This document shows positions 1,192 through 9,614 of a stretch of DNA of 20,000 nucleotides, one piece after another (the first letter of the stretch is position 1; each line of letters begins with the position of its first letter). The translations under genes were made by a program, and so were the position numbers. This DNA comes from Rozella allomycis CSF55 (lineage: Eukaryota), in contig KE561145.1 of NCBI GenBank assembly GCA_000442015.1, positions 58,061 through 78,060 of the forward strand. Direction: 5' to 3'. The notes under the pieces were generated by a model. The model was not told where the DNA came from, did no database searches, and saw nothing but the letters and a program-made list of their open reading frames with translations.

Positions 1192-1773
1192 TTAAAATTT
1201 GGATGATATCGATTTCTTCTGCATTCCCCTTCGTTTCCTTGCATTAATGAGCCATGTCGAGACTTGCTTTATGCTGAGGTTAGCTCGTTTCGCCAATTCT
1301 TCTCTTTCTTTTCCTGTACAATATGGATAATCGCGGTGATCTTTGAGCCAATTTTCCAAAACTATTAGTGATTCGACAGGATGTTTATTTTTGATTGTTT
1401 CAAAGTTGGATCTTTCACTAGACTGCGAAGATATTGAAGGGGAATTCGGACAGGATGATGGAGTTGGTGGACATGCAATAGAATTATTTGAATACTCAAA
1501 ATTATCTGTTTTAATTGCTTCAGAAGGCCAAATGTATTGTTGTAGAGCAAATTCCCTAATCTTTTCCCTAGTTTCTTCCAAGTAAGACATGTAATCAGTT
1601 GGCAGGTAATCAACCAACAAGCGCATGTAATGATCCATAGATAGTAAAAACAAGTTGAGATCCTTATTGTCGGTGTCACTATAATTTAGTGATTGATGGA
1701 TAGTTTGAAGTGTCTCAATATGTCTCATGACAGTTTCTGATGGGATTGAAGTCAAAGAGTTTGTCGTCATCAT
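1192..1773 (-). CDS. TALE-class homeodomain transcription factor (MEIS/TGIF/Cup9-like, Ile50)
   Basis: Intronless 193-aa ORF. The C-terminal LENWLKDHRDYPYCTGKEREELAKRANLSIKQVSTWLINARKRR has the three-residue loop extension (YPYC for HPYP) and a WxINAR recognition helix. Confidence 0.9.
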   Translation of the reverse strand: MMTTNSLTSIPSETVMRHIETLQTIHQSLNYSDTDNKDLNLFLLSMDHYMRLLVDYLPTDYMSYLEETREKIREFALQQYIWPSEAIKTDNFEYSNNSIACPPTPSSCPNSPSISSQSSERSNFETIKNKHPVESLIVLENWLKDHRDYPYCTGKEREELAKRANLSIKQVSTWLINARKRRGMQKKSISSKF

Positions 1774-1933: not shown

Positions 1934-3724
1934 TTATTCAAAATCGTCAATGTTAAGATTTTTGGTGTCGGCCGCAGACGCCAAAAATTCTAGTGAATTT
2001 TGATGACCCCTAATTGGAAAAAATAGAAGAATAGTACTCTCTAACGTCCAAATTTTCTGATTGGGACCACTCTAAACCCTAATAAACTGATAAAAATTAA
2101 ATTACAGAGCTCAATGGTTCTTTAATCGGAGATGGTGCTCTTGACGACGTGTGCGCGCTTTGAGTTGCTGATTCTGATAGGACAATTTTATTGGGATCAT
2201 CATCATGATGAGTGGGATTGTTGCATTTATTAACAAAATTTTTAATTTCGTTTAAAGTTTTCACATCCAAAGCGTCAATTTCTAACTCTATTTCGTCCGT
2301 TTCACTTGTTTTAAGAGTTGGCATGGACTTTTGAATAATGTCTACAACCATTAAAATCTGATTTTGGTTTAGATTATTAATGTCTTCACTTAATTTCTTT
2401 TTTTCTTCAAAAGTCAAAGGCCTATAGAGTGGCTTTTGCACCGATGGTTTTGCCGGGGTAGACACGGATGTAGCTGATTCAGGTTTCCTTTGTGGTTTTC
2501 GCTTTTTGGCACGTAATTGGTTTAATTGACTTTTTAAGTTTTGTATTTGAGCCTTTATGGATTTTATAGCCCTAGAGTCTAAAGTCTGTAAGGGATAAAT
2601 GACTTACCTTCGTCGGACGAATACTCTCCATCTGTTTCATCTGAAGACTCATCGAAATCGTCTGTGAAAATAGGTTTATCTTTCCATTTATTTAAAAACA
2701 CATTCTCGAATTTGTTGCACATTTGAACAATTTCAGAGTCTGGAGGATTGAAAGTTCTACAATTGTTAAACATTAACAAGACGTCGTCGTGGAATTCATC
2801 AGAGGTGCGATATTCACGGGAATCAATTTTCTTTTTGATAGTAGAAAGGTCCATTGGGTGCTTAATAATGTCAAAGTAGGTAGGAACTCCAAGGGCAATA
2901 GGGTCTACAGGTTCCAAGAATGGCCATGCGATATCTTGGTAAGACTTTTTCGTCAAGTCTTTCCAAATTTGCAAACAATATTTTAAATGTTCATTTTGAG
3001 TATTTTTTCTTACAACTTGATTAGCAATGCTGCCTCTGGCTCTAGAGGCACGTTTAACATCTGGTGAATGCATAGAGTTACTATTCCTTCGCTTCTTTAT
3101 CTATAAGTTTTAATATGCGTTTTTACTCGCCGTTCATCGTCATAAAGAGATCCTACTGGTGATTGTTCAGTAGGCATTTTGGTCAAGTATGAATTAAAAG
3201 ACTTTTCAAGATTTTTGGCCATCTTTGAGATAGGAGATTCTGATCCATTGTATACGAAGCAATTATTTATCATCAATTTAAAATCGTTTATAAACTCATC
3301 AGCACTTTCATATGCCGCAGAGTCTAATTTTTTGCCCATAGTGCTAAGATCCATAGGCACTTTAATTATCGTTGGATAATCAGGAATGTTCAAGGCAATG
3401 GGGTCAACCGGCAACAGGAATGGTGAGGCATCTTTATGGCGCCTTAAGGCCTTTAAAATAGTTGTGCAATACTTCAATTGTTCTCGAACTATTGTCCCTT
3501 TTGGCCTAGTCGATCCATCGTCTTTGGACACCTGTCTTAACTCACATATTCTTATACTTGGTCATCTTGCCCCGGAAAATTACTGCCGGTGTCAGATCTC
3601 AGTCCAGAACTATTCATTGACGAATCATAAACACTTTGGAAAACACTATTGTTAGATCTGCATAAATTAATTAGATAAATGTTAAAATAATAAAATAAAT
3701 CACATCATTTCGTAATTACCTCAT
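1934..3724 (-). CDS. BDF1: BET-family double-bromodomain + ET protein
   Basis: Two bromodomains (ASPFLLPVDPIALNIPDYPTIIKVPMDL and AWPFLEPVDPIALGVPTYFDIIKHPMDL) and an ET domain (LTFEEKKKLSEDINNL...EIELEIDALD). Inferred introns are 3719-3658, 3557-3532, 3126-3101, 2607-2579, 2105-2079 and 2037-2010. The 5-nt first coding exon and the last two exons are less certain. Confidence 0.92.
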
Positions 3725-3899
3725 CTTTGAAATTTCGGAAATTCCGCAGGGGGATTTTCTTCGCTCATCCTTTTATACTGCCAAACCCTGGTCTAGTGGC
3801 TTAGGAACAGTGTGCATTCAAACTTTCATAAAGAGATTGTGTTTTTTACATATGTTGCTATTTTTATCATATTTTCCCGCGCATTTGTAAACAAACTTA

Positions 3900-4637
3900 A
3901 TGCCAAAAGAAAGCGTTCTCGTTTCTAATCATTTGACAAATACTTTAACTGTTTCTCAAAGAAATGTCTCTAGTGCTTTGTACGAAAGAATACAAAAACT
4001 TTTTCCAGGAGAAGGAATTAAATCCAATCACGCCCCAACCCCAATAATTTCTAAATCAAGTCCTGTTAAAGAGTTAATAATGAAGTTTGATACAAAATTT
4101 AATGGGCTGGAAAAGGAGTATTTGCTACTAACAAAGAGGACCTCAATGCATCCACCAAATGGTGGGCAATCAAAAGATTCCTTTCAAAATAGTATAAACT
4201 ACAAAAAGGCATATGTTGACTATAAAAACTGGATTGAAAAGAATGGTGGATTCCTTACTTTTTCTTCAGTCGAAGCATTATATGGAATATCCCAAGACGT
4301 CCAAAAGGAGGGCACAGTCCTAATAATAGACCATACTATTAAAGAGGGCACCATAATTGTATGCAATGATAAAGGGCGCAATAGTATCAATGAAATGATT
4401 ATTGGCAATGTCGTGAATTTCAACAAAATGGAAAAGCTACCGTTAGTCATAAATGACTTTTCTAATATTGCTAGCCATAATTGCCATTGGAATAGTTTTA
4501 TGGACGATTCATCAAAAGCTATGAAGGATTTTGATAAAATGATGAGAAAAGTTGCCAAAGAAGAGTCACTGCGGCGAACGTTTTCAGAACTAAAAAGCAG
4601 AGCTCAAAATTTGTCCAAAATTATAAGAGTGGATTAA
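3900..4637 (+). CDS. Hypothetical protein (245 aa), no recognisable domain
   Basis: Long uninterrupted ORF in AT-rich DNA, with a CCCG motif ~20 nt upstream and AATAAA just after the stop. Transcribed divergently from BDF1. Confidence 0.7.
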   Translation: MPKESVLVSNHLTNTLTVSQRNVSSALYERIQKLFPGEGIKSNHAPTPIISKSSPVKELIMKFDTKFNGLEKEYLLLTKRTSMHPPNGGQSKDSFQNSINYKKAYVDYKNWIEKNGGFLTFSSVEALYGISQDVQKEGTVLIIDHTIKEGTIIVCNDKGRNSINEMIIGNVVNFNKMEKLPLVINDFSNIASHNCHWNSFMDDSSKAMKDFDKMMRKVAKEESLRRTFSELKSRAQNLSKIIRVD

Positions 4638-4717
4638 TGTAATAAAATTAATAAACAATATGGCATATGCTGTTTCAATTTTTGAGTCACCTACCCCAGT
4701 TATAGTTTCAGAATTTC

Positions 4718-6143
4718 ATGTTCATATCTCTAGATGATTTTACACTAGAAGAAAAGGTGGGGGAAGGCACATTTGGGTATGAAGAGTATTAATTTTATTA
4801 ACTTGAGAGAAGTTTATAAAGGACTGCACAAATCTAGCGGAGAAAAAGTAGCCTTAAAGCGTTTGTTGGTACATAAGAGAGAAACTGGGGTAATTAAAAT
4901 CAAATATTTTTTAAAGTTTCCTCTCACCTCGATAAGAGAAATTAGCGTGTTACAAAGCCTGATGCATTTAAATATAATCAATATTCACTCATTTTGTACT
5001 GGCCCCGGTGAATCTGGCGACGATATTTACATGGTATTTCCATACATGGAACATGATCTTACTGGTATTTTAGAGAATCAAACAATCAAATTGTCTAATT
5101 CCATTATTAAATGCTATATGAAGCAACTTTTTGAAGGTTTATATTATATTCACAAAGTAAGACATATTTTTCATCTTGATGCTGGCTGGTTTTATCCACA
5201 GAGATATTAAGGCTTCAAATTTATTGATTGACAATAACGGAAATTTAAAAATAGCTGATTTTGGCCTTGCCAGAAAATATAATTCAATCACTTTGACTCC
5301 AGGTGTGGTGACAAGATGGTACAGGGCTCCTGAAGTATTGCTAGGATTAAAAGAGTATACCCCTGCTATTGATATTTGGAGTGGCGGGTATTTGGACTGA
5401 TTTTTCATAAACAGATGCGTTTTTGCCGAAATGTTTAAAAGAGAGCCAATTTTTCAAGGTTCTTCTGACATTGATCAGCTCGAGTTAATAATAAAATATC
5501 TCGGAAATATTGATGAGCGGAATATGCCGGGTTATAAAAATTGTATTGTTTCACCAAGAAGGCTAAACAATCAAGGAGGAAGCGAACAGTTAAGATTGTA
5601 TCTAAATACGTACTATTTATCAAATTCTGGAACATTAGTTTTATCCAAGATAACACTGCTATCGAGCTAATAGAAAAAATCCTATGCTTAAACCCGCACA
5701 CTCGCTTAAAAGCGTCCAGTGTCCTTACCGACAACTATTTCTGGTCTTTTCCACTCCCAATAAAAAAGGAAGAGTATTCGCAACAAAGCTATGTTATTTA
5801 GGATACCTTCATTCCCTAGTAGTCACGAAATCGATAAAAGAAAGCCTAGAAAACGAGAACTTGAAACGAAATATAACCGTATCACTTTACCATATATAAA
5901 ATAGACATTAATTTAGGCAAGAATAATTCCATTCTCTCAAGACATCCCCCGCCTCCTGAAGGGAAATTGGGCAATCGACACCCACCTCCACCTTCAATGA
6001 ATCACTTAAGTAGGACTAAAGCAAGCAAAAGGCCGAGAATTGATAGCTACATTCCTTCTAAAAAAGTAAAAGAATCTATTGGATTGCCTCCTTCTTCAAA
6101 GCCAATGACCGATGAAATTGAAGACGGCGAAATTTTTGAATAA
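4718..6143 (+). CDS. BUR1: Transcriptional cyclin-dependent kinase, CDK9/BUR1-like
   Basis: Motifs: [83 protein letters not shown] and a Pro-rich tail. Introns are 4777-4807, 4890-4916, 5157-5184 (GT-TG), 5388-5414, 5610-5638, 5774-5801 and 5879-5904. The subfamily assignment (CDK9 versus CDK10/11) is less certain than the CDK call. Confidence 0.82.
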
Positions 6144-6182: not shown

Positions 6183-8408
6183 ATGCATCCTTTAATATCT
6201 CTCATCATTGTTTTTCTTGCTTCATGTTGTTTTGGTTTATCAAATGTAGATATGTTAACTACATTTCCTAATGTGTTTCCATCAAATTTCACATTCCTCA
6301 ACACATCCAATCCTTGGTACAAATTTTCTTTCTCGAGTCAATACGATATATATTGGCAGGTTAAAAATGAAAACTCGTCCAGTCTTGGTGCTATTCAAAT
6401 ACTTCTAAACAGGAAAGGAAAAGGATTTACTGGTCTTGCTTTGTCTCAGAATTTTGAAATGTTGAATTCAGATTTTATTATAGTTACCAGTATTGATGAT
6501 GGACAGACATTGTCTGTGAATGATTATTATAATCCGCCAACGAGCAGAGGCCCGGTTTTTGATACCACAATCCCAGGAGGGACTAATAACATTGACATCA
6601 TTTCTTATAACATTACTAATGCAAATTATCAGGTTTTATTTCAAAGATTGTTAAATACTGGCGATCCGTTTGATATTCCGATTTTACCAACTAGAATGAA
6701 GGTGCTTTATTCTTTGTCGAACTCTTGGTCATTATCTTACCATGGAAAAATGAATAGAGGATTTGCTTACATAGATTTCCTGAAAACTTCCGGGACACTG
6801 AAGGATTCTCTATATCTTCCAGTTCCTTCCACGGCAGTTGGTTCTACATCATCACCAACGAGGTCTTTCGCTTTCATCGTGTTCCATGGAATAACAATGT
6901 TCGTATCATTTACTATCATTTTTCCGCTAGGAATATTTTTCGCGCGTTATTGGAGAGGAGCAAGATGGCTGACTTTACACAGGGCGAGCATGACGTTTGC
7001 GACATCTCAGTCTTTTACAATATCTTTGGCGGCTTTACTTCAGAGTAATTTTAACGCTTCATCAGAACATTCCATAATAGGCGTATCAGTTACAACGCTA
7101 CTAGTTTCCCAATTAATTCAAGGCTTCGTAATTACGAAAAATTATCCAAGACTGGTCAATGTGGCATACGTTTTAAGACTTATTCATAAAATATCAGGTT
7201 ACTTAATATTCGTTTTGGGGATTGTAAATTCCTATTTTGGCCTGTACAAAGCGTCCGCGGGGAGCGGGAACGAAACCTATCTTGTAGGTATTTATTCGGC
7301 ATGGCTAACATCTGTTGTAATCTGTTTTATTATAATGGGTCATTTTGGCTATATCTTCAAATTTCGTTCAATACAAACTGAATCACAAACCAAGCTGGCT
7401 ATTTTTTCAAAGGAAGAATTTGGAAATAAAATTAAAGCGGGGTCGAAATGGGTAATACATGAGGATTTAATATACGACGTCGGTGATTTCTCTCAACAGC
7501 ACCCTGGAGGATCTGAAATTTTAGTCAATCAAATAGGTACCGACATCACCAAGGCCTTCTCTGGACAAGTTAATGAAACTGGGAAAAGACATGTTCATTC
7601 CAGATTCGCTGTCGCAAAGCTAGGGGAAATGATAGTTGGAAGATTGAACACAGCGAAGGGCGAAAAATCATCGAAGAAACTTTTGACTTCTTTAAGAAGT
7701 GCTTTGGAAATCAAATCTACATTTTCAAATTTAGTACATGGTTCTGAGAAGGGTTCGAGTGAATTTGTTGGTATTTTAACAATGAAAAAATTGGTAACAG
7801 GGCCGGAAATGGTCAGCCCGGTATATAAATTCAGAATTAGGCTTCCTCAATCAATCAAAATTGAGAAATGGCCGTCATATTTCTTTTTAAAATGCAACAA
7901 TGTTTCAAGACCTTACACTAACGTTAACTCGGGCACAGTTGACGAGCTTGAATTTCTTATTCGACTTTATCCTGAAGGACAAATGTCACGTATTTTAAAA
8001 ACTATAAAAGTTAATGACAGCATATTTGTTGGTCCTCCTTCATATTCCGATGCAACTTTTCCAAAAGATGAAAATTCTTATTTTGCTCTTGTTGCAGGTA
8101 CTGGCATCACACCCGTCCTTCAGTTTCTCTCGTATTTTTGGAAAAGAAACGTCATCTTAAATATTCACGTCTTCGCAATTCACAAAAGCCCAGATGATGT
8201 CTTTTATAATGAAGACATGACAAAGCTGGCTAGGTATCACAAAATCACTATAAGCAAAGAATTTACCAACGGTAACAGGTTCACAAAAGAGCTTTGGAAT
8301 ACATTCGTTCCAAAGGACGAAACAAAAACCCTCATTGTTTGTGGTCCCAAGAGTTTTATCGAGACAGTTGACAGCTTCAAGTTAAAAAATCCTATGATAT
8401 GCCTTTAA
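6183..8408 (+). CDS. Membrane redox fusion: signal peptide + DOMON + cytochrome b561 + cytochrome b5 + FAD/NAD(P)-binding reductase
   Basis: DOMON with Met (EMLNSD) and His (SYHG) ligands. Five TM segments carry four b561-type His (FHG, LHR, EHS, IHK). The b5 motif is WVIHEDLIYDVGDFSQQHPGG...GTDIT...HS. FNR/CBR motifs are RPYT, YPEGQMS, AGTGITP and CGP. Confidence 0.88.
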   Translation: MHPLISLIIVFLASCCFGLSNVDMLTTFPNVFPSNFTFLNTSNPWYKFSFSSQYDIYWQVKNENSSSLGAIQILLNRKGKGFTGLALSQNFEMLNSDFIIVTSIDDGQTLSVNDYYNPPTSRGPVFDTTIPGGTNNIDIISYNITNANYQVLFQRLLNTGDPFDIPILPTRMKVLYSLSNSWSLSYHGKMNRGFAYIDFLKTSGTLKDSLYLPVPSTAVGSTSSPTRSFAFIVFHGITMFVSFTIIFPLGIFFARYWRGARWLTLHRASMTFATSQSFTISLAALLQSNFNASSEHSIIGVSVTTLLVSQLIQGFVITKNYPRLVNVAYVLRLIHKISGYLIFVLGIVNSYFGLYKASAGSGNETYLVGIYSAWLTSVVICFIIMGHFGYIFKFRSIQTESQTKLAIFSKEEFGNKIKAGSKWVIHEDLIYDVGDFSQQHPGGSEILVNQIGTDITKAFSGQVNETGKRHVHSRFAVAKLGEMIVGRLNTAKGEKSSKKLLTSLRSALEIKSTFSNLVHGSEKGSSEFVGILTMKKLVTGPEMVSPVYKFRIRLPQSIKIEKWPSYFFLKCNNVSRPYTNVNSGTVDELEFLIRLYPEGQMSRILKTIKVNDSIFVGPPSYSDATFPKDENSYFALVAGTGITPVLQFLSYFWKRNVILNIHVFAIHKSPDDVFYNEDMTKLARYHKITISKEFTNGNRFTKELWNTFVPKDETKTLIVCGPKSFIETVDSFKLKNPMICL

Positions 8409-8454: not shown

Positions 8455-9614
8455 ATGAGAGTAGTTTAAAATTTTCTATTTTCACATTAGGTTGCAGTAA
8501 TCGGTTGTTGCCATGGTGAATTGGACAAAATATATGAAACTTGCAGTAAAATAAAGCCAGCCATAGATCTTGTTTTGATAACCGGTGATTTTCAGAGTAT
8601 TCGTGATGAATATGACCTTTCATGCATGGCAGTGCCAGATAAATACAAAAATATGGGAGTATTCCATGAATATCATTCCGGAAAGAAAGTGTCCCCGATA
8701 TTGACTATTTTTGTTGGTGGAAATCACGAGGCATCAAACTACTTGAGAGAATTGTACATTTATTTCTCTTCAGGAATATTTAGGTATTTTGGTGGTTGGG
8801 TAGCAAAAAATATTTATTTTCTTGGGTTTTCAGCTGTTGTGAATGTTGGTGGTCTTACGATAGGGGGTATCTCCGGAATTTTCAATAAAAGCGACTACAA
8901 AAAAGGTATTGGAACTATAGGCTTTCGAAAGGATATTTTGAAACTTTTCCACATGATTTGAGGGCAGCATATCACACTAGGGAATTCGAAGTAATTAAAT
9001 TGGCTAAAGTAATACACATTCATTATGAGGAGTAGTTCAATGGGAAGATTGATATTTTTCTTTCACATGATTGGCCTCAGGGAATCGAACATTGCGGAGA
9101 CACAAATGATTTGCTTCGTCGTAAACCATATTTTAAGAATGATATTGAAAATGGCAATCTCGGTAGCCCTTTGAATAAATATCTATGTGAACATTTAAAA
9201 CCAAAGTATTGGTTCTCATCTCATCTTCACGTTAAATTCAACGCTGTCATAAACCACAGCGACGGCAATACAACGAATTTTCTGGCACTTGATAAGGTTC
9301 TTCCTTATAGGAAGTTTATCCATGTATTTAACACATTTTCAAAACAATGCTAGATAGTTGATTACCCAAGCGTTGGTGAAATGAAGCTCAAGATAAATTT
9401 GGAATGGATTAATATCCTTAGGAAAACGATGAAATTAATGCCTTTAGGCAACCAAAACGTAGAGTTTTCCTCTCTTTGCAATGAAAACGAGCTCAAAGAA
9501 AATGAGTACGATGGTGACCTAAATCCAATTGATTTCGAAGAACATCCGTCAATTGCAAAGTTTTGTTCAAAATTTGATATCTCTTTTCCATTGAACTCAA
9601 TAAACATTTATTAG
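8455..9614 (+). CDS. DBR1: RNA lariat debranching enzyme
   Basis: [59 protein letters not shown] and FLALDK. Introns are 8461-8490, 8754-8783, 8906-8931, 9009-9035 and 9324-9353. Confidence 0.95.

What the first reader, a model, noticed from the sequence alone, without database searches (positions are those of the whole stretch)
6183..8408. Single-polypeptide transmembrane electron chain: DOMON-b561-b5-flavin reductase
Seen: a signal peptide, a heme-type DOMON with Met/His ligands, and five TM helices with all four b561 histidines. These are followed by a cytochrome b5 domain (HPGG plus a distal His) and a cytochrome-b5-reductase/FNR module (RPYT, AGTGITP, CGP). The odd TM count puts DOMON outside and b5 plus reductase in the cytosol. 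Known: DOMON-b561 proteins (CYBDOM, FRRS1/SDR2) normally depend on a separate cytosolic donor such as ascorbate, and b5+CBR is the electron-input module of nitrate reductase and NCB5OR. Inference: the protein carries electrons NAD(P)H > FAD > b5 heme > two b561 hemes > external DOMON heme by itself. That would be a convergent alternative to NOX/FRE ferric reductases, plausibly for iron/copper acquisition or ROS production at a host interface. Partial fusions are known in protists, so the novelty of the full architecture needs checking.
Basis: partly seen in the sequence, partly recalled or inferred. Interest (0 to 1): 0.8.

Follow-up and report, generated by a model that had tools for sequence, protein, structure and literature searches.

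The report
Self-fuelled transmembrane haem wire, uncapped form
One fungal-type gene joins an NAD(P)H-oxidising flavin enzyme to five probable haem sites that span a membrane, apparently replacing the vitamin C donor that such proteins normally need; the design occurs in many microbial eukaryotes, often with an extra enzyme on its outer end, and I found no study of it.

Summary
Confirmed. Window 6183-8408 (+) is a single-exon 741-aa ORF with DOMON, cytochrome b561, cytochrome b5, FAD- and NAD-binding domains, all above Pfam cut-offs, five membrane helices and all eight haem ligands. It is not unique: it is a compact, uncapped member of a family seen in chytrids, Gonapodya, Gigaspora, Rigifila, Cyanophora, stramenopiles, Stentor and Cercozoa. 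67 of 126 family rows carry an animal-type peroxidase cap; this scan noted that form before in three windows of other genomes. New here: the cap is swappable (also cytochrome-c-peroxidase-like or ceruloplasmin-like); the family has mostly lost the arginines of the b561 ascorbate site; and a complex model docks b5 on exactly that site (0.64, best control 0.00). Best reading: NAD(P)H > FAD > b5 > two b561 haems > outer DOMON haem (about 0.8). The acceptor is untested: Fe(III)/Cu(II) is most likely for this copy, a partner enzyme next, superoxide output least. It is not a NOX/FRE/DUOX member. Nine literature searches found no description; two key reviews were not held. A host-interface role is not shown.

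The parts
6183..8408 (+). Whole single-exon gene, 741 aa (P0001): DOMON-b561-b5-FAD-NAD
   Evidence: one full-length copy in G000
6183..6236 (+). Predicted signal peptide (aa 1-18)
   Evidence: hydropathy only; coordinates
6336..6776 (+). DOMON domain (aa 52-198), haem ligands Met93 (codon at 6459) and His187 (6741); outside or luminal
   Evidence: PF03351 E 5e-16; M in 96 of 101 and H in 111 of 112 non-gap rows; fold match to dopamine beta-hydroxylase Z 16.8, rmsd 2.6, 145 aligned
6855..7358 (+). Five-helix cytochrome b561 (aa 225-392): His235+His296 outer haem, His266+His335 inner haem, Arg255 at the haem-propionate position; ascorbate-site arginines absent
   Evidence: PF03188; model; conservation; position scheme from PMC10691727 and PMC10784544 passages
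7392..7652 (+). Cytochrome b5 (aa 404-490): HPGG His440 and distal His472 in a family-typical HxHS motif; predicted to dock on the cytosolic face of b561
   Evidence: PF00173; PDB b5 matches; HxH[STG] in 93 of 120 family b5 against 5 of 73 b5 domains from hits without b561; complex model
7659..7754 (+). Low-confidence linker (aa 493-524) between b5 and the reductase; inferred hinge for b5 shuttling
   Evidence: pLDDT under 50
7764..8048 (+). FAD-binding domain of cytochrome-b5-reductase type (RPYT, GQMS)
   Evidence: PF00970; the family profile's best reductase match is Physarum CBR 2eix, E 3.7e-51
8070..8405 (+). NAD(P)H-binding domain (AGTGITP, CGP), shortened, ends in Leu
   Evidence: PF00175; FNR-family fold Z 20-22, rmsd 2.2-3.9, 204-228 aligned

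Best explanation
The protein is a self-contained transmembrane reductase of the secretory pathway (plasma membrane or an endomembrane; not resolved). Shown by sequence and model: five haem sites and one flavin in one chain, DOMON on one side and b5 plus reductase on the other. Inferred: the CBR-type domain takes a hydride from NAD(P)H (the family leans to NADPH), FAD hands single electrons to b5, b5 swings on a flexible linker and plugs into the pocket where ordinary b561 proteins bind ascorbate, and electrons cross by the two b561 haems to the Met/His DOMON haem (about 0.8 for this wire). In relatives a fused outer enzyme takes the electrons. This copy has no cap, so its acceptor is free. I commit to Fe(III)/Cu(II) chelates, with Fe(II) entering by the genome's NRAMP transporter (a little over half, given the wire).
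For: Domains and ligands. Ascorbate-site positions H3+21 and H4-7 are basic in only 13 of 124 and 9 of 125 family rows, while the haem-binding H1+20 Arg/Lys is kept in 112 of 118. Two of three b5-less b561 controls keep both arginines (read by eye). Complex model of b561 (222-396) with b5 (400-492) and three haems: score 0.64, best of 3 controls 0.00, runs agree in at least 79% of contacts, partner pLDDT at least 82; the mark was reached by 51 of 78 solved and 2 of 108 mismatched microbial pairs, and by 39 of 65 solved eukaryote pairs without a like complex and 2 of 126 unrelated pairs. Its interface is residues 259-264, 318, 328, 332, the ascorbate positions. Characterised CYBDOMs reduce ferric and cupric substrates (PMC10784544). 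G000 has an NRAMP; its 3 ferric-reductase-domain hits read as NOX-type; no FTR1, multicopper oxidase or ALO match was found. Three relatives carry a multicopper-oxidase cap, ceruloplasmin-like in the one tested against the PDB.
Against: No activity, location or expression data. The commonest cap is a peroxidase (67 of 126 rows), which points to H2O2 rather than iron for the family as a whole. The genome's own b5-less DOMON-b561 gene (L006) also lacks the two arginines, so their loss is not diagnostic alone. One of three complex runs scored 0.21, the alignments were not used, and small molecules were not in the calibration. The full-length model does not fix domain positions (pTM 0.52). Genome absences are weak: exon-by-exon search of a possibly incomplete assembly. 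The nucleotide-specificity loop of P0001 is shortened and did not align.
Confidence: 0.45

Rival explanations
1. Same wire, but the DOMON haem feeds a separate outer redox enzyme (a peroxidase or copper enzyme), as the related cytochrome domain of cellobiose dehydrogenase feeds LPMOs (recalled). The family would be a cell-surface NAD(P)H-driven H2O2 or O2 reductase, and this copy would work with its cap in trans.
For: Three unrelated caps sit at the same place in the chain: animal-type peroxidase (67 of 126 rows), class I peroxidase like cytochrome c peroxidase (P0062, P0085; E 4e-25 to yeast CcP for P0062) and multicopper oxidase (P0037, P0110, P0138). All three accept single electrons from a donor (established knowledge). 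G000 has three class I peroxidase loci, two beside copper-radical-oxidase-like frames.
Against: No animal-type peroxidase or multicopper oxidase was found in G000 (the control rang nowhere). L013 reads like a mitochondrial-type CcP; no secreted partner was identified. Only 19 of 49 full-length animal-type caps keep distal His, distal Arg and proximal His together.
Confidence: 0.22
2. An ordinary ascorbate- or small-molecule-fed CYBDOM, with b5 and reductase fused but not obligately coupled (serving other cytosolic or membrane partners, or decaying in this copy).
For: The NAD domain of P0001 is short and divergent. Some family rows end after b5 or FAD (many may be fragments). A basic residue at H1+23, one of HYP1's ascorbate positions, is kept in 70 of 118 rows, and H4-3 is basic in 104 of 125.
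Against: FAD and NAD motifs are intact in P0001 and conserved (R576 in 101 of 111 non-gap rows, G639 in 109 of 112, G721 in 100 of 100). 69 of 126 rows keep the five domains in order across distant lineages. b5 docks on the ascorbate site in the model. No ALO gene for ascorbate synthesis was detected.
Confidence: 0.15
3. A NOX/DUOX-like oxidase: the outer haem reduces O2 to superoxide/H2O2 for a peroxidase or for signalling.
For: The peroxidase-capped form mirrors DUOX architecture, and the cap's profile matches DdPoxA, lactoperoxidase and DUOX1. [quoted passage not shown]
Against: b561 and Met/His DOMON haems are of clearly higher potential than NOX haems and than the O2/superoxide couple (recalled, not measured here). 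A multicopper-oxidase cap does not fit an H2O2-supply logic. G000 already has three NOX-type genes, and this copy has no peroxidase.
Confidence: 0.13
4. Electrons run inward or the chain is a redox sensor: an outer reductant reduces DOMON and the chain loads b5 for cytosolic use.
For: Sequence cannot give direction.
Against: CBR-type domains run from NAD(P)H to b5 (established knowledge), and reducing NAD(P)+ from b-type haems is strongly uphill.
Confidence: 0.05

Closest known systems
CYBDOM proteins (Arabidopsis HYP1/CRR, insect CG8399, animal FRRS1/SDR2)
   Same: Signal peptide, Met/His DOMON, five-helix b561 with two His pairs; a three-haem conduit to outer acceptors (PMC10784544 passages).
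   Different: They take electrons from cytosolic ascorbate. This protein lacks HYP1's R299/R307/N311 equivalents (I317, A328, R332) and carries b5 plus a CBR-type reductase at the C-terminus.
DOMON-bearing ferric reductases (eFRE clade of Naegleria and oomycetes)
   Same: Same logic in one chain: NADPH, FAD, two membrane haems, outer DOMON (PMC3591440 passage).
   Different: Those use the ferric-reductase membrane domain (four His on two helices) and have no b5 in the described models; here four His lie on four helices, spaced 31, 30 and 39 residues apart, and b5 bridges flavin and membrane.
DUOX / NOX / FRE (FRD superfamily)
   Same: NAD(P)H-driven transmembrane electron transfer; the commonest relative carries an animal-type peroxidase domain like DUOX, often with a degenerate distal pocket.
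   Different: Non-homologous membrane domain, CBR-type rather than NOX-type dehydrogenase, no EF-hands, extra b5 and DOMON haems; this copy has no peroxidase.
b5 + cytochrome b5 reductase module of nitrate reductase and NCB5OR (CYB5R4)
   Same: Fused b5 and CBR-type FAD/NAD domains in the same order.
   Different: There the module feeds a soluble molybdenum centre or other partners; here it is tethered to a b561. The family mostly lacks an acidic residue at the position of CBR's NADH-selecting Asp (3 of 78 non-gap rows; role of that Asp recalled) and mostly ends in an aliphatic residue.

Membership tests
Eukaryotic cytochrome b561 | Four haem-ligand His on four successive membrane helices; PF03188 | tested here: met
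   H235, H266, H296, H335 on four helices; PF03188 29.2 bits against cut-off 23
Eukaryotic cytochrome b561 | Arg/Lys at H1+20 binding the cytosolic haem propionate | tested here: met
   R255; basic in 112 of 118 rows; scheme from PMC10691727
Eukaryotic cytochrome b561 | Basic ascorbate-binding residues at H2-7, H2-3, H4-7 (Dcytb, AtCytb561) | tested here: not met
   G259, L263, A328; family basic in 23 of 121, 2 of 121, 9 of 125. H2-3 is also non-basic in insect CYBDOMs, so H4-7 is the telling one.
CYBDOM | Signal peptide, haem-type DOMON (Met/His), five-helix b561 | tested here: met
CYBDOM | Ascorbate site of HYP1/CG8399 (Arg at H3+21 and H4-7, Asn at H4-3) | tested here: not met
   I317, A328, R332; family basic at H3+21 in 13 of 124, at H4-7 in 9 of 125; Asn at H4-3 in 2 of 125
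CYBDOM | Ascorbate-dependent ferric/cupric reductase activity | not testable with these tools
   needs oocyte or yeast assay
FRD superfamily (NOX/FRE) | Ferric-reductase membrane domain PF01794 with four His on two helices | tested here: not met
   no PF01794 match at E 0.1; the own-genome PF01794 search hit three other loci, not this gene; His on four helices
FRD superfamily (NOX/FRE) | FAD_binding_8 / NAD_binding_6 dehydrogenase | tested here: not met
   P0001 matches FAD_binding_6 and NAD_binding_1 only; family profile ranks CBR first among reductases
DUOX | N-terminal animal haem peroxidase domain and EF-hands | tested here: not met
   none in P0001; no cap match upstream in the window, and the previous gene's frame ends 42 bases before the ATG
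Cytochrome b5 reductase-type module | RxY(T/S), GxM(S/T), GTGITP and CGP motifs; FNR-family fold | tested here: met
Cytochrome b5 reductase-type module | Acidic residue selecting NADH over NADPH | tested here: inconclusive
   P0001 falls in a gap at this column; family acidic in 3 of 78 non-gap rows, S/T in 34, K/R/H in 24
Cytochrome b5 | HPGG His plus second axial His | tested here: met
   H440 in 124 of 125 and H472 in 120 of 121 non-gap rows
Undescribed (cap)-DOMON-b561-b5-reductase family of microbial eukaryotes | Five core domains in this order with full-length homology | tested here: met
   24% identity over 719 columns to P0002, E 5e-45
Undescribed (cap)-DOMON-b561-b5-reductase family of microbial eukaryotes | Outer enzyme cap (common, not universal) | tested here: not met
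   uncapped, like Stentor P0069 (706 aa, DOMON from residue 25) and an Atlas cluster of 54, commonest phylum Ciliophora

The most novel reading that the evidence does not exclude
Eukaryotes have a second, independently built class of NAD(P)H-driven transmembrane oxidoreductases besides NOX/FRE, old enough to be shared by fungi, CRuMs, glaucophytes and SAR. In it a tethered cytochrome b5 has taken over the ascorbate pocket of cytochrome b561, and interchangeable outer enzymes (two unrelated peroxidase folds, a ceruloplasmin-like oxidase, or none) are fed electrons from inside. The peroxidase-capped forms would then be cell-surface NAD(P)H peroxidases, the reverse of DUOX logic, and this 741-aa protein is the minimal wire.
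Probability: 0.35. Interest if true: 0.85.

Novelty: new variant of a known kind. Interest (0 to 1): 0.68.

Why it matters
The characterised b561 proteins in the papers I read use ascorbate, and NAD(P)H-driven transmembrane reduction in eukaryotes is credited to the NOX/FRE superfamily. A b561 wired to NAD(P)H through b5 would be a second route, working in cells that make no ascorbate, and it is spread over many poorly studied lineages including zoosporic and arbuscular mycorrhizal fungi and brown algae. This copy is among the shortest complete ones found and has no introns, so it is the easiest to express. The predicted b5-in-ascorbate-pocket interface is a sharp, mutation-testable claim. The swappable caps suggest a modular device for exporting reducing power.

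Tried and rejected
Word-index homologue search found one relative with the single sequence and none with alignment A2 at 'longer' or 'near' lengths; the HMMER search showed these blanks reflect low sensitivity. RNA evidence: no RNA holder listed, so expression is untested. Foldseek's top hits were bacterial SpNOX, but at rmsd 17-18 and TM 0.24, driven by the shared flavin fold; rejected as evidence of NOX kinship. No solved b561 appeared in either fold list for the 741-residue model; the domain was not folded alone, so this is inconclusive. A spliced-in upstream cap: rejected. Horizontal transfer or an exact origin: the tree leaves P0001 on a long branch (1.02) at open nodes, with no starred set holding it (quick method, LG+G4, 85 of 126 rows, no outgroup). 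Uncapped rows are scattered on that tree, which fits repeated cap loss, but many uncapped rows are fragments and gain versus loss was not tested. A first motif-regex count of peroxidase residues undercounted and was replaced by an alignment count. Atlas search with the oxidase-capped P0138 gave no usable hit. Earlier-findings search by sequence gave nothing.
Full report
OBSERVATION. The finding is real. Window 6183-8408 (+) is one open frame of 741 codons in a compact, intron-bearing eukaryotic genome of 11.86 Mb, where it is the only full-length copy. Earlier notes of this scan on the same genome call it a Rozella-type parasitic fungus (e1-7125706, e1-7126375); I did not check that label. Five Pfam domains pass their gathering scores in the order DOMON, Cytochrom_B561, Cyt-b5, FAD_binding_6, NAD_binding_1, and no other family matched at E 0.1. 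The AlphaFold2 model (42-row alignment, pLDDT 79.7, pTM 0.52) shows the beta-sandwich, five membrane helices, the b5 fold and the two reductase domains, with low confidence at 1-40, 203-222, 394-397 and 493-524. Positive charges cluster in the loops after helices 1, 3 and 5, and glycosylation sequons lie in the loops after helices 2 and 4. The frame of the upstream kinase gene ends 42 bases before the ATG, and none of eight capped relatives matched the window outside this ORF, so no outer domain is spliced on.

THE FAMILY. A full HMMER search of 1.84 billion representatives gave 1931 hits at E 0.001, of which the best 150 were returned. With profiles built from those hits, 126 of 152 rows (query, P0002 and the 150) have b561 followed by b5; 69 have all five core domains in order, and 50 of these 69 also have an N-terminal animal-type haem peroxidase (67 of the 126 overall) (Pfam check on 30 rows). 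I looked up 30 of the 150 for names. Those with an organism were chytrids (Polychytrium, Chytriomyces, Thoreauomyces, Cladochytrium, Blyttiomyces, Boothiomyces; Quaeritorhiza), Gonapodya, Gigaspora, Rigifila, Cyanophora, Discosporangium, Tribonema, Chrysoparadoxa, a bicosoecid, Platysulcus, Stentor and a cercozoan. The ESM Atlas gave a 54-member cluster without peroxidase among its listed families (0.95, commonest phylum Ciliophora) and a 179-member peroxidase-capped cluster (0.77, a lead only). A quick tree of 85 of the 126 rows groups several named stramenopile rows, and most chytrid rows, with each other, leaves P0001 unresolved on a long branch, and scatters the uncapped rows. Three earlier scan notes describe the peroxidase-capped form in other genomes; they are leads, not support.

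THE CAP IS SWAPPABLE. A Pfam scan of 30 rows, most chosen by hand for unexplained N-termini, found a class I peroxidase cap in 2 (Gonapodya P0062, P0085) and a multicopper oxidase in 3 (P0037, P0110, P0138). P0062 matches yeast cytochrome c peroxidase (E 4e-25) and keeps distal Arg, distal His and proximal His in the alignment; P0085 has lost the distal His. P0138 matches ceruloplasmin (E 3e-123). Complete uncapped forms exist too: P0001 and Stentor P0069. Among 49 full-length animal-type caps, 19 keep distal His, distal Arg and proximal His together, and 43 keep the proximal His. The three cap types are unrelated folds whose shared trait is that they accept single electrons (established knowledge). 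This suggests that the conserved core supplies electrons outward and the cap, where present, spends them.

EVIDENCE THAT b5 REPLACES ASCORBATE. All eight haem ligands are kept in 91 of 94 rows that cover them. PMC10691727 (passages) gives the ascorbate-binding positions of Dcytb as H2-7, H2-3 and H4-7, and those conserved in insect CYBDOMs as H1+23, H3+21 and H4-7. PMC10784544 (passages) docks ascorbate on HYP1 R307 and N311 and lists K234, R299 and R307 as equivalents of the solved site. In this family H3+21 is basic in 13 of 124 rows and H4-7 in 9 of 125, while the haem-binding H1+20 is basic in 112 of 118; H4-3 has become basic in 104 of 125, and H1+23 stays basic in 70 of 118. Two b5-less CYBDOMs among the hits keep both arginines, but the genome's own b5-less gene L006 does not (read by eye), so the loss is suggestive, not diagnostic. 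The family's b5 has its own signature, HxH[STG] at the distal ligand, in 93 of 120 rows against 5 of 73 b5 domains from 18 hits without b561. Folding b561 (222-396) and b5 (400-492) as separate chains with three haems scored 0.64 (runs 0.70, 0.21, 0.64) against 0.00 for the best of three controls; runs agree in at least 79% of contacts and partner pLDDT is at least 82. The mark was reached by 51 of 78 solved and 2 of 108 mismatched microbial pairs, and by 39 of 65 solved eukaryote pairs without a like complex and 2 of 126 unrelated pairs; ligands were not in the calibration and my alignments were not used. The interface is b561 residues 254, 259-264, 318, 321-325, 328-329 and 332, that is H2-7 to H2-2, H3+22, H4-7 and H4-3, against b5 residues 439-442 and 470-484; F475 touches L263, T318, A328 and R332. 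The model supports binding and does not show it. I know of no solved b5-b561 complex it could be recalling (own knowledge).

THE REDUCTASE. The family profile's best reductase matches are cytochrome b5 reductases (2eix, E 3.7e-51), then nitrate reductase and CYB5R4, far ahead of FNRs. FAD and nucleotide motifs are conserved. At the column that aligns with CBR's NADH-selecting Asp (role recalled), 3 of 78 non-gap rows are acidic, 34 are Ser/Thr and 24 Lys/Arg/His. That leans to NADPH or dual use and does not fit the label 'NADH-type' in two earlier notes. P0001 itself has a shortened loop and falls in a gap there.

HOW IT MOST LIKELY WORKS. Shown: parts, order, sidedness, conserved ligands. Modelled: b5 on the former ascorbate pocket. 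Inferred: NAD(P)H > FAD > b5 > inner haem (H266/H335) > outer haem (H235/H296) > DOMON haem (M93/H187), with b5 moving between flavin and membrane on the 493-524 linker; about 0.8. The acceptor of this uncapped copy is untested. Fe(III)/Cu(II) chelates rank first: that is what characterised CYBDOMs reduce, and G000 has an NRAMP but no detected FRE-type reductase, FTR1, multicopper oxidase or ascorbate-forming ALO (all weak as absences). A separate outer enzyme ranks second, on the evidence of the caps. Superoxide output ranks low, because b561 and Met/His haems are too oxidising (recalled potentials) and the genome has three NOX-type genes. Nothing here ties the protein to a host interface.

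COMPARISON AND NOVELTY. It works like a ferric reductase or NOX in being NAD(P)H-driven and transmembrane, but it fails FRD membership on the membrane domain and the dehydrogenase type. It is a CYBDOM by its outer half but fails on the ascorbate site. The nearest described analogue is the DOMON-bearing eFRE clade of Naegleria and oomycetes (PMC3591440, passages), which reaches the same plan with NOX-type parts. Nine full-text searches (listings seen) and passages of six papers showed no description of a b561 fused to b5 and a reductase. PMC10784552 does say that DOMON is often fused to FAD/NAD-binding oxidoreductases, citing a source I did not see. Iyer et al. 2007 and Asard et al. 2013 were not held, no supplements were read, and subscription journals are mostly missing, so the architecture may have been drawn before. 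Database names for the looked-up members are generic ('hypothetical protein', 'heme peroxidase', single-domain names). Verdict: a new variant of a known kind, widespread and apparently unstudied, with a testable mechanism; interest 0.68.

Noticed in passing
L015:1-2202 (G000:C556): A glyoxal/galactose-oxidase frame (PF07250, PF09118) is followed about 260 bases later, on the same strand, by a class I peroxidase frame (PF00141). It may be one spliced oxidase-peroxidase fusion: an H2O2 producer joined to a peroxidase.
   Followed up: partly
L014:1444-3306 (G000:C769): A class I peroxidase gene lies directly before a membrane-anchored PAN-domain frame whose end reads by eye like the start of a glyoxal oxidase: a second peroxidase/oxidase neighbourhood.
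   Followed up: partly
L006:970-2334 (-) (G000:C731): A second DOMON-b561 gene without b5 or reductase; by eye its DOMON lacks the Met/His ligands, and its b561 lacks the usual ascorbate arginines.
   Followed up: partly
L007, L008, L009: Three NOX-type genes in a compact genome (two with frames ending in KENF); no FRE-type, FTR1, multicopper oxidase or ALO match, but one NRAMP.
   Followed up: partly
P0037 (2338 aa, unnamed source): DOMON-b561, then a multicopper oxidase, then DOMON-b561-b5-FAD-NAD in one chain: two b561 units flanking an oxidase.
   Followed up: partly
P0084, P0101: The N-terminal cap has a His...Cys-x2-His-x2-Met pattern like a type 1 blue-copper site (by eye); no Pfam match.
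   Followed up: partly
   Followed up: partly
P0030 (1958 aa); P0119 (4632 aa): One relative also carries a protein kinase domain after the FAD domain; another has 20 DOMON repeats before the b561.
   Followed up: no
window 4700-6141 (+), 8490-9200 (+), 1192-1773 (-), 2097-3900 (-): Neighbours are housekeeping genes, several split by small introns: a CDK-like kinase ending 42 bases before the ATG, a downstream gene with a lariat-debranching-enzyme-like motif (recalled; no Pfam hit on the 111-aa piece), a TALE homeobox gene and a bromodomain gene. No iron or redox gene cluster.
   Followed up: no
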